The notes beneath the pieces were generated by a model. It was not told the DNA's origin. It made no database searches and was given only the letters and a program-made list of their open reading frames with translations. 64,000 nt of DNA from Eledone cirrhosa (Eukaryota), in NCBI GenBank assembly GCA_964016885.1, contig OZ024743.1, forward strand, positions 41,230,001-41,294,000, written 5' to 3'. The position numbers and the translations under genes were made by a program. Within the stretch, counting starts at the first letter, position 1. Every line of letters starts with the position of its first letter. Of the stretch, positions 622 to 817 are shown piece by piece.

Positions 622-817
622 GACAGTTGAAAATTGCAAACTCGACTGTCACCACATATTATGAACCTGAAGATTGCGAAAGCATGAAAGTACTTGTTCA
701 ATTAACACTTAGAATTTAATATTCTATCATACTATTTCATTATAATACCATTATATATTTTAAAGGATTTTAAATAAAACGAGTAAATCAGACAAAGTTG
801 GAATTCCTCTTATTAAT
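622..817 (+). mobile_element. Short non-coding Penelope-type insert in (TA)n carrying a hammerhead
   Basis: About 200 bp of unique sequence bounded by TA-type microsatellite on both sides; contains the hammerhead at 662-700. Confidence 0.55.
662..700 (+). ncRNA. Minimal type I hammerhead ribozyme, U-U variant
   Basis: Stem I TGAAC(662-666)/GTTCA(696-700); core CTGAAGA 667-673; stem II T-TGC-GAAA-GCA-T; GAAA 686-689; palindromic stem III AGTACT; predicted cleavage after T695. Confidence 0.7.

What the first reader, a model, noticed from the sequence alone, without database searches (positions are those of the whole stretch)
662..700. Hammerhead with a U-U pair closing stem II, an architecture shared by three families here
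Seen: an otherwise textbook minimal type I hammerhead (perfect 5 bp stem I, CUGAAGA, GNRA-capped stem II, palindromic stem III) has U10.1-U11.1 instead of the usual purine-pyrimidine (G-C) pair. The same GA-T-[3 bp]-loop-[3 bp]-T-GAAA layout recurs in family B (TGA T TTC TCCG GAA T GAAAC, about 22750-22770) and family A (30885-30908). Inference: a lineage of variant hammerheads that descriptors requiring a 10.1-11.1 pair would miss. I cannot confirm whether it has been described.
Basis: partly seen in the sequence, partly recalled or inferred. Interest (0 to 1): 0.7.

Follow-up and report, generated by a model that had tools for sequence, protein, structure and literature searches.

The report
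U·U hammerhead of Penelope retrotransposons
This is a hammerhead-shaped RNA motif at the end of a jumping gene with thousands of identical copies in this genome; its odd U·U pair is the family norm and already appears in published hammerhead lists, and the RNA likely cuts itself only weakly, when two copies pair.

Summary
The motif at 662-700 is real. It lies in a 196-bp, 5'-truncated terminal-repeat fragment (623-818) of a young Penelope-like element (PLE), inserted in (TA)n. U10.1·U11.1 is the family consensus: 6,559 exact cores, none with both positions changed. Families A (16,193 exact) and B (4,064), and a fourth family, share the layout. They are not one lineage: A and B are Hydra-clade PLEs, only 21% identical to this Neptune/Nematis-like family. 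Five of nine close relatives from other samples also have U·U, with different paired stems, so the layout is conserved. It is not new: Perreault 2011 reports natural U10.1-U11.1, and 14 of 26 Hydra-clade rows in Craig 2021 File S2 show it, labelled canonical. Cleavage is untested. Six of 90 ORF1-linked 5' ends fall at the predicted cut (0.8 expected), but a genome-wide control and families A and B show no excess. Best reading: a weak, dimer-dependent PLE hammerhead. The scan noted similar PLE hammerhead variants and cut footprints before, in this and other genomes.

The parts
623..818 (+). 5'-truncated terminal-repeat (pLTR) fragment of a Penelope-like element, family C; starts at the family's commonest 5' boundary, a likely transcription start
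   Evidence: 98% identical over 198 nt to the pLTR of an intact tandem element, L166; 19 of 30 core-anchored loci start 57-74 nt before the predicted cut
662..666 (+). Hammerhead stem I, 5' strand
   Evidence: 5 Watson-Crick pairs with 696-700
667..673 (+). Catalytic core C3-A9 (CUGAAGA)
   Evidence: sequence
674..685 (+). Stem II: U10.1 (674), 3 bp, GAAA loop, U11.1 (685)
   Evidence: family consensus
686..695 (+). G12-A15.1, palindromic helix III (689-694) and U17; predicted cut after 695
   Evidence: the palindrome is kept with different letters in relatives and by changes at 691 and 692 of near-equal depth in run X4
696..700 (+). Stem I, 3' strand; predicted 5' end of the cleaved RNA
   Evidence: 6 of 90 ORF1-linked copies begin at -3..+3 of this point
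530..622 (.). (TA)n-rich target microsatellite, left flank
816..1165 (.). (TA)n target microsatellite, right flank
   Evidence: 26 of 30 loci have a TA run 100-300 nt downstream
30200..30954 (+). Family A (Hydra-clade PLE) 3' fragment; hammerhead core at 30885 with U4A, U·U and a long helix III. Other cores at 27637, 57131 (+) and 47247, 48770, 56630 (-)
22686..22879 (.). Family B (Hydra-clade PLE) head-to-head insertion; damaged core at 22743 (-) and a core-truncated copy at 22750 (+). Further B insertions at 12932-13050 and 5950-6130

Best explanation
The motif is a minimal type I hammerhead in the terminal repeat of a young Penelope-like retrotransposon, with U·U fixed in place of the G10.1-C11.1 pair, and it likely cuts its own RNA only weakly, after U695, when two copies pair through the palindromic helix III. 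Shown: the anatomy, the host element (ORF1 plus RT and GIY-YIG ORF, tandem arrays of about 4.2 kb), fixation of U·U, and its conservation in relatives whose stems differ. Inferred: transcription starts about 72 nt upstream of the cut; tandem read-through or a second transcript supplies the partner; U·U stacks as a wobble in the 10.1-11.1 slot; a minority of transcripts is cut and gives elements that start at the cut, while most insertions are copied from uncut RNA (or from cut and re-ligated RNA). U·U arose, or was kept, separately in at least two PLE clades.
For: 6,559 exact cores, reversed control 0; 0 with both U changed. L031 carries RT and GIY-YIG (Pfam E 2.9e-6, below the RVT_1 cut-off, and 3.2e-6) with the hammerhead about 385 nt downstream; 131 of 131 scored RT matches are 99-100% identical. 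U·U in 5 of 9 close relatives with a detectable hammerhead, with different stem I, stem II and palindrome letters; the G-C relatives L398 and L399 have the pair in the same slot with no extra nucleotide. Two copies can form the dimer fold (-13.8 kcal/mol against -4.2 per monomer). 6 of 90 ORF1-linked 5' ends at -3..+3 against 0.80 expected, Poisson P 1.9e-4, the densest 6-nt window between -125 and +165. Literature: U-U is the best-tolerated mispair (PMC3088659 citing Ruffner 1990); PLE minimal hammerheads cut weakly and only as dimers (PMC4209133); a Poseidon hammerhead cuts only with its protein and unprocessed RNA is the main template in vitro (PMC11167929).
Against: No cleavage was measured and no RNA data were obtained. 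Genome-wide, copies breaking in the 11 positions around the cut (390) are not more than in a control window (413). No pile-up at the cut in B (1 of 50) or A (0 of 30), although both have a stable helix III. By eye only 3 of the 6 family C ends fit exactly +1. 58 of the 90 copies extend 26 nt or more upstream of the cut. In the 138-nt context stem I is mostly not predicted (0.06-0.07), and the best predicted dimer (-16.4) is a slightly different fold. Family A spread to 16,193 exact matches, the first 100 listed all with U4A, so these elements may tolerate a poor ribozyme.
Confidence: 0.75

Rival explanations
1. The fold is kept for a non-catalytic job (binding site for the element's protein, promoter or template-switch signal), and U·U marks loss of cutting.
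For: Most copies run through an uncut motif; no excess in A, B or the genome-wide control; catalytic mutants of a Poseidon hammerhead still insert in vitro.
Against: All catalytic core positions and a palindromic helix III are kept in relatives at 45-53% protein identity; small excess of 5' ends at the cut; U-U is reported as compatible with activity.
Confidence: 0.15
2. The two uridines do not pair. U674 is the extra nucleotide typical of PLE hammerheads between A9 and 10.1, the true 10.1-11.1 pair is U675-A684, and U685 is a second insertion before G12.
For: An extra nucleotide after A9 is the PLE consensus and is the commonest form among the distant relatives.
Against: G-C relatives in the same clade lack the extra base and hold G-C in the slot that U·U fills; File S2 shows G·U and U·C forms with the same inner stem, which are one-step intermediates. 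This changes the geometry, not the classification.
Confidence: 0.2
3. All U·U hammerheads here descend from one variant ancestor, possibly by exchange of terminal repeats between PLE clades.
For: The family C stem II resembles Hydra Penelope-3_HM stem II; U·U labels cluster on the tree (0 of 500 shuffles as low).
Against: C and A/B proteins are 21% identical and far apart on the tree, which needs 4 changes, at least 3 forced by well-supported branches; the A, B and C references match disjoint places of the window; G-C, G·U and A-U forms sit inside both clades.
Confidence: 0.1
4. Copy-specific decay or chance match.
For: None.
Against: 6,559 exact copies, 0 with both U changed; shuffles give 0.2 against 42 hits.
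Confidence: 0.01

Closest known systems
Hammerheads of Hydra-clade PLEs (Craig et al. 2021, PMC8557442; read: introduction, section 11, passages, supplement parts 2-3 of 59)
   Same: 14 of 26 Hydra-clade rows in File S2 have core-U, a 3-5 bp stem II, then U-GAAA, titled 'Canonical HHR motifs'. Families A and B have the Hydra protein marks (RWR, DKT, CxCX5C) and (TA)n flanks.
   Different: In the parts I read the paper does not comment on U·U or test it. Family C is not Hydra-clade. Family A adds U4A, which is absent from those rows.
[quoted passage not shown]
   Same: Type I, pLTR location, short palindromic helix III, dimer requirement, dispersed truncated and inverted copies. The Hydra row of Fig. 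S3 is U·U as I parse the text, and probably the D. willistoni row too (2 of 56).
   Different: Their consensus is an extra nucleotide plus G10.1-C11.1 and a longer helix II; here stem II is U·U plus 3 bp.
Natural U10.1-U11.1 hammerhead (Perreault et al. 2011, PMC3088659; read: sections 8 and 13, passages, Fig. S6 text)
   Same: Same mismatch at the same position, stated as natural and as the best-tolerated mispair (citing Ruffner 1990, which I did not see).
   Different: Presented as a rare variation; the garbled Fig. S6 text suggests phage PaP3. Here it is the consensus of families with thousands of copies.
Neptune / Nematis EN+ PLEs (definitions from PMC8557442)
   Same: [quoted passage not shown]
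   Different: I could not tell Neptune from Nematis: no named reference sequences were in the tree.

Membership tests
Type I hammerhead ribozyme | Core C3 U4 G5 A6 N7 G8 A9 / G12 A13 A14 A15.1 / U16.1 H17 | tested here: met
   (family C and B consensus; family A fails U4)
Type I hammerhead ribozyme | Helices I and II, open at helix I | tested here: met
   paired with different letters in relatives
Type I hammerhead ribozyme | Standard pair at 10.1-11.1 | tested here: not met
   U·U fixed; a published tolerated exception
Type I hammerhead ribozyme | Site-specific self-cleavage after H17 | not testable with these tools
   Indirect only: 6 of 90 ends against no excess
Rfam hammerhead families | Covariance-model match | tested here: not met
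   no hammerhead hit at E<=10 on 630-760
PLE minimal hammerhead (Cervera 2014) | Located in the pLTR of an RT + GIY-YIG element | tested here: met
PLE minimal hammerhead (Cervera 2014) | Short palindromic helix III | tested here: met
   AGUACU; palindromic in 5 of 5 U·U relatives
PLE minimal hammerhead (Cervera 2014) | Extra nucleotide after A9 plus G10.1-C11.1 | tested here: not met
   the paper's own Hydra row also departs
EN+ Penelope-like element, Neptune/Nematis type (family C) | C-terminal GIY-YIG, CX2-5CxxC linker, DKG, GxKF | tested here: met
EN+ Penelope-like element, Neptune/Nematis type (family C) | Placement in a named clade by RT phylogeny | not tested
   no named references in the tree
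Hydra-clade PLE (families A, B) | RWK-like motif, DKT, CxCX5C linker, no GxKF, single short ORF | tested here: met
   against the definition
Hydra-clade PLE (family C) | RWK-like motif and CxCX5C linker | tested here: not met

The most novel reading that the evidence does not exclude
U10.1·U11.1 is a selected, slowed hammerhead form that Penelope-like elements reached more than once. It lets most transcripts stay uncut as templates while a fraction is cut to set the element's 5' end. Because it lacks G10.1, named with A9 as the metal C-site (PMC6257768, one passage), these abundant natural variants would directly test whether that site is needed.
Probability: 0.25. Interest if true: 0.5.

Novelty: new member of a known kind. 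Interest (0 to 1): 0.25.

Why it matters
Modest. It shows that a mismatch treated as a rarity, and filtered out by strict searches, is the norm in several high-copy retrotransposon families (18 of 42 hammerhead hits in my 474-kb sample) and is conserved in a second PLE clade. It gives ready substrates for two open questions: what PLE hammerheads do in vivo, and how much the A9/G10.1 metal site matters. The variant itself is in print.

Tried and rejected
Rfam on the whole window listed only below-threshold matches, nearly all microRNA models on microsatellites, among the 150 of 372 shown, and nothing relevant on 630-760. The repeat finder was swamped by (TA)n. No RNA holder was listed for the element; this is no evidence on expression, and the contigs laid cannot show RNA ends. 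Viral contigs gave no relatives for either clade. The genome-wide breakpoint test showed no excess at the cut (390 against 413; the control is strand-skewed, 130/283, and both include indels). The P values printed for B and A are not valid, because the B reference was itself truncated at -51 (32 read-through copies pile there) and the A reference lost homology near -215; only the counts at the cut are used. One search collapsed identical copies (77 rows) and was replaced (90 rows). The careful tree did not finish; the quick tree has SH-aLRT only, took 46 of 96 related loci, dropped two under 250 aa, and labelled L395 'none' although it has U·U. No autonomous parent was found for family D. My first parse of Cervera Fig. 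S3 (no U·U row) was wrong and was corrected. Lunse et al. 2016 (PMC5785218; about 150,000 PLE-linked variants, recalled) and Mir et al. 2015 were not held, and Perreault's Text S1 descriptors could not be read; these may say more on U·U. From bioRxiv 10.64898/2026.07.22.740005 I read part 1 of 5, and from PMC6765202, PMC11300833 and PMC1636495 passages only; none changed the reading.

Full report
Observation. The window is AT-rich and full of microsatellites. The 39-mer folds into stems I and II, and chance expectation is about 4e-6 per window. The layout recurs at 30885 (family A) and 22750 (family B). A has a CAGAAGA core. The B copy named lacks C3-G5 because it is the truncated arm of a head-to-head insertion whose other arm has A6U. 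Both families have long helix III.

Family state. The 23-nt core with both uridines occurs 6,559 times in G000, with 0 for the reversed control. No copy has both uridines changed; 26 have only 10.1 changed and 52 only 11.1 (32-nt patterns). Among 126 fuzzy copies in my loci, a set enriched for exact matches, neither U varied. Family A has 16,193 exact matches, the first 100 listed all with U4A. B has 4,064 with an intact core. A descriptor free at 10.1-11.1 gave 42 hits in 474 kb (window plus 41 stretches) against 0.2 in shuffles; 18 of 42 were U·U, from four families, the rest mostly G-C or A-U.

Host element. Window 623-818 is 98% identical to the terminal repeat of an intact element and sits between TA runs. 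L031 carries ORF1 (476 aa) and an overlapping 775-aa RT plus GIY-YIG frame, with the hammerhead downstream. All 131 scored RT matches are 99-100% identical, some in tandems of about 4.2 kb. 12 of 30 core loci have an inverted partner upstream. This is the standard PLE structure described in PMC8557442. Motifs put family C with Neptune/Nematis and A and B with the Hydra clade. A and B share 51% identity; C and B share 21%. The named eukaryotic homologues of C among the 120 listed are bivalve proteins.

Conservation elsewhere. I scanned 96 related loci from MAG and metagenome contigs, which I infer to be animal host DNA. Among relatives at 38-53% identity with a detectable hammerhead, 5 of 9 have U·U (L377, L393, L395, L396, L397), three G-C (L398, L399 and the weak L376) and one A-U (L380). 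Ten other close relatives showed none, several for lack of 3' sequence. Stems and palindromes differ in letters but stay paired. No hit in the distant relatives had U·U; most have the extra nucleotide plus G-C. On a quick tree of 47 rows the U·U label needs 4 changes. So U·U is conserved within this clade and again within the Hydra clade, but the three families of the finding are not one lineage.

Does it cut? I mapped 5' boundaries of copies that continue into ORF1 (90 of 125 anchors). Six fall at -3..+3 of the site predicted beforehand, against 0.80 expected from 38 boundaries in 284 nt (P 1.9e-4). One has both arms starting exactly at +1, two more fit +1, and three are 1-2 nt off. A second cluster at -75..-67, about 30 nt after a TATA-like box, is the likely transcription start; 19 of 30 core-anchored loci start at -74..-57. 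Against: 58 of 90 extend 26 nt or more upstream of the cut; all-copy counts show no excess (390 against 413); B shows 1 of 50 (of 59 anchors) and A 0 of 30 (of 119 anchors). This fits weak, partial cutting, or re-ligation, and agrees with PMC4209133 (low, dimer-only activity) and PMC11167929 (cleavage needs protein, uncut RNA is the main template; passages). It does not prove catalysis.

What is known. [quoted passage not shown] Its filter rejects such hits unless activity is measured, and Rfam misses this motif, so the concern about descriptors is partly right. PMC8557442 File S2 lists U·U in 14 of 26 Hydra-clade rows as canonical, beside G·U and U·C forms, and the Hydra row in PMC4209133 Fig. 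S3 is the same motif. My six answered paper searches found no paper that discusses U·U as a PLE trait or reports it in a Neptune/Nematis-type family; Lunse et al. 2016 was not available and may do so.

Verdict. Real, well conserved, and a new member of a known kind. It works like a PLE minimal hammerhead and meets the core, helix and context features, but not the standard 10.1-11.1 pair, which is a published exception. The additions here are fixation in four high-copy families, conservation in a second PLE clade, and a small cut-site footprint in one family. Interest 0.25.

Noticed in passing
window 30885 and G000-wide: Family A has U4A in its consensus core (CAGAAGA) on top of U·U; 16,193 exact matches, 0 of 30 ORF-linked 5' ends at the cut. 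Already noted by the scan (e1-10310971).
   Followed up: partly
L158:2717-5674; L037, L038, L070, L162: Family D: U·U hammerhead with palindromic helix III in tandem units of about 460-500 bp, retrozyme-like; no parent ORF found.
   Followed up: partly
window 22539-22595 (+): Separate hammerhead with G10.1-C11.1, a long stem II and a TATATA palindrome.
   Followed up: no
L066:8630-9683: Tandem of about 311-bp units with an A10.1-U11.1 hammerhead.
   Followed up: no
L165 (G000:C1:83678500-83686500): Array of family B repeats with a period of about 1,080 bp and no long ORF.
   Followed up: no
L101-L125: Many family B short copies begin within about 10 nt upstream of the core, about 30 nt after a TATA-like box, with a head-to-head partner: likely transcription-start-defined 5' ends.
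   Followed up: partly
L031:4327-4417 (-): ORF1 and the RT frame overlap in different frames, a candidate programmed frameshift; ORF1 has no Pfam match.
   Followed up: no
window 691-692, run X4: Changes at both positions, at near-equal depth (13 contigs and 13 contigs), would keep the helix III palindrome.
   Followed up: partly
L376-L391: Prokaryotic MAGs in the genome collection contain PLE contigs with hammerheads, likely host contamination.
   Followed up: no
window 8487-13628: 5-kb TA-rich satellite that causes many of the spurious microRNA matches.
   Followed up: no
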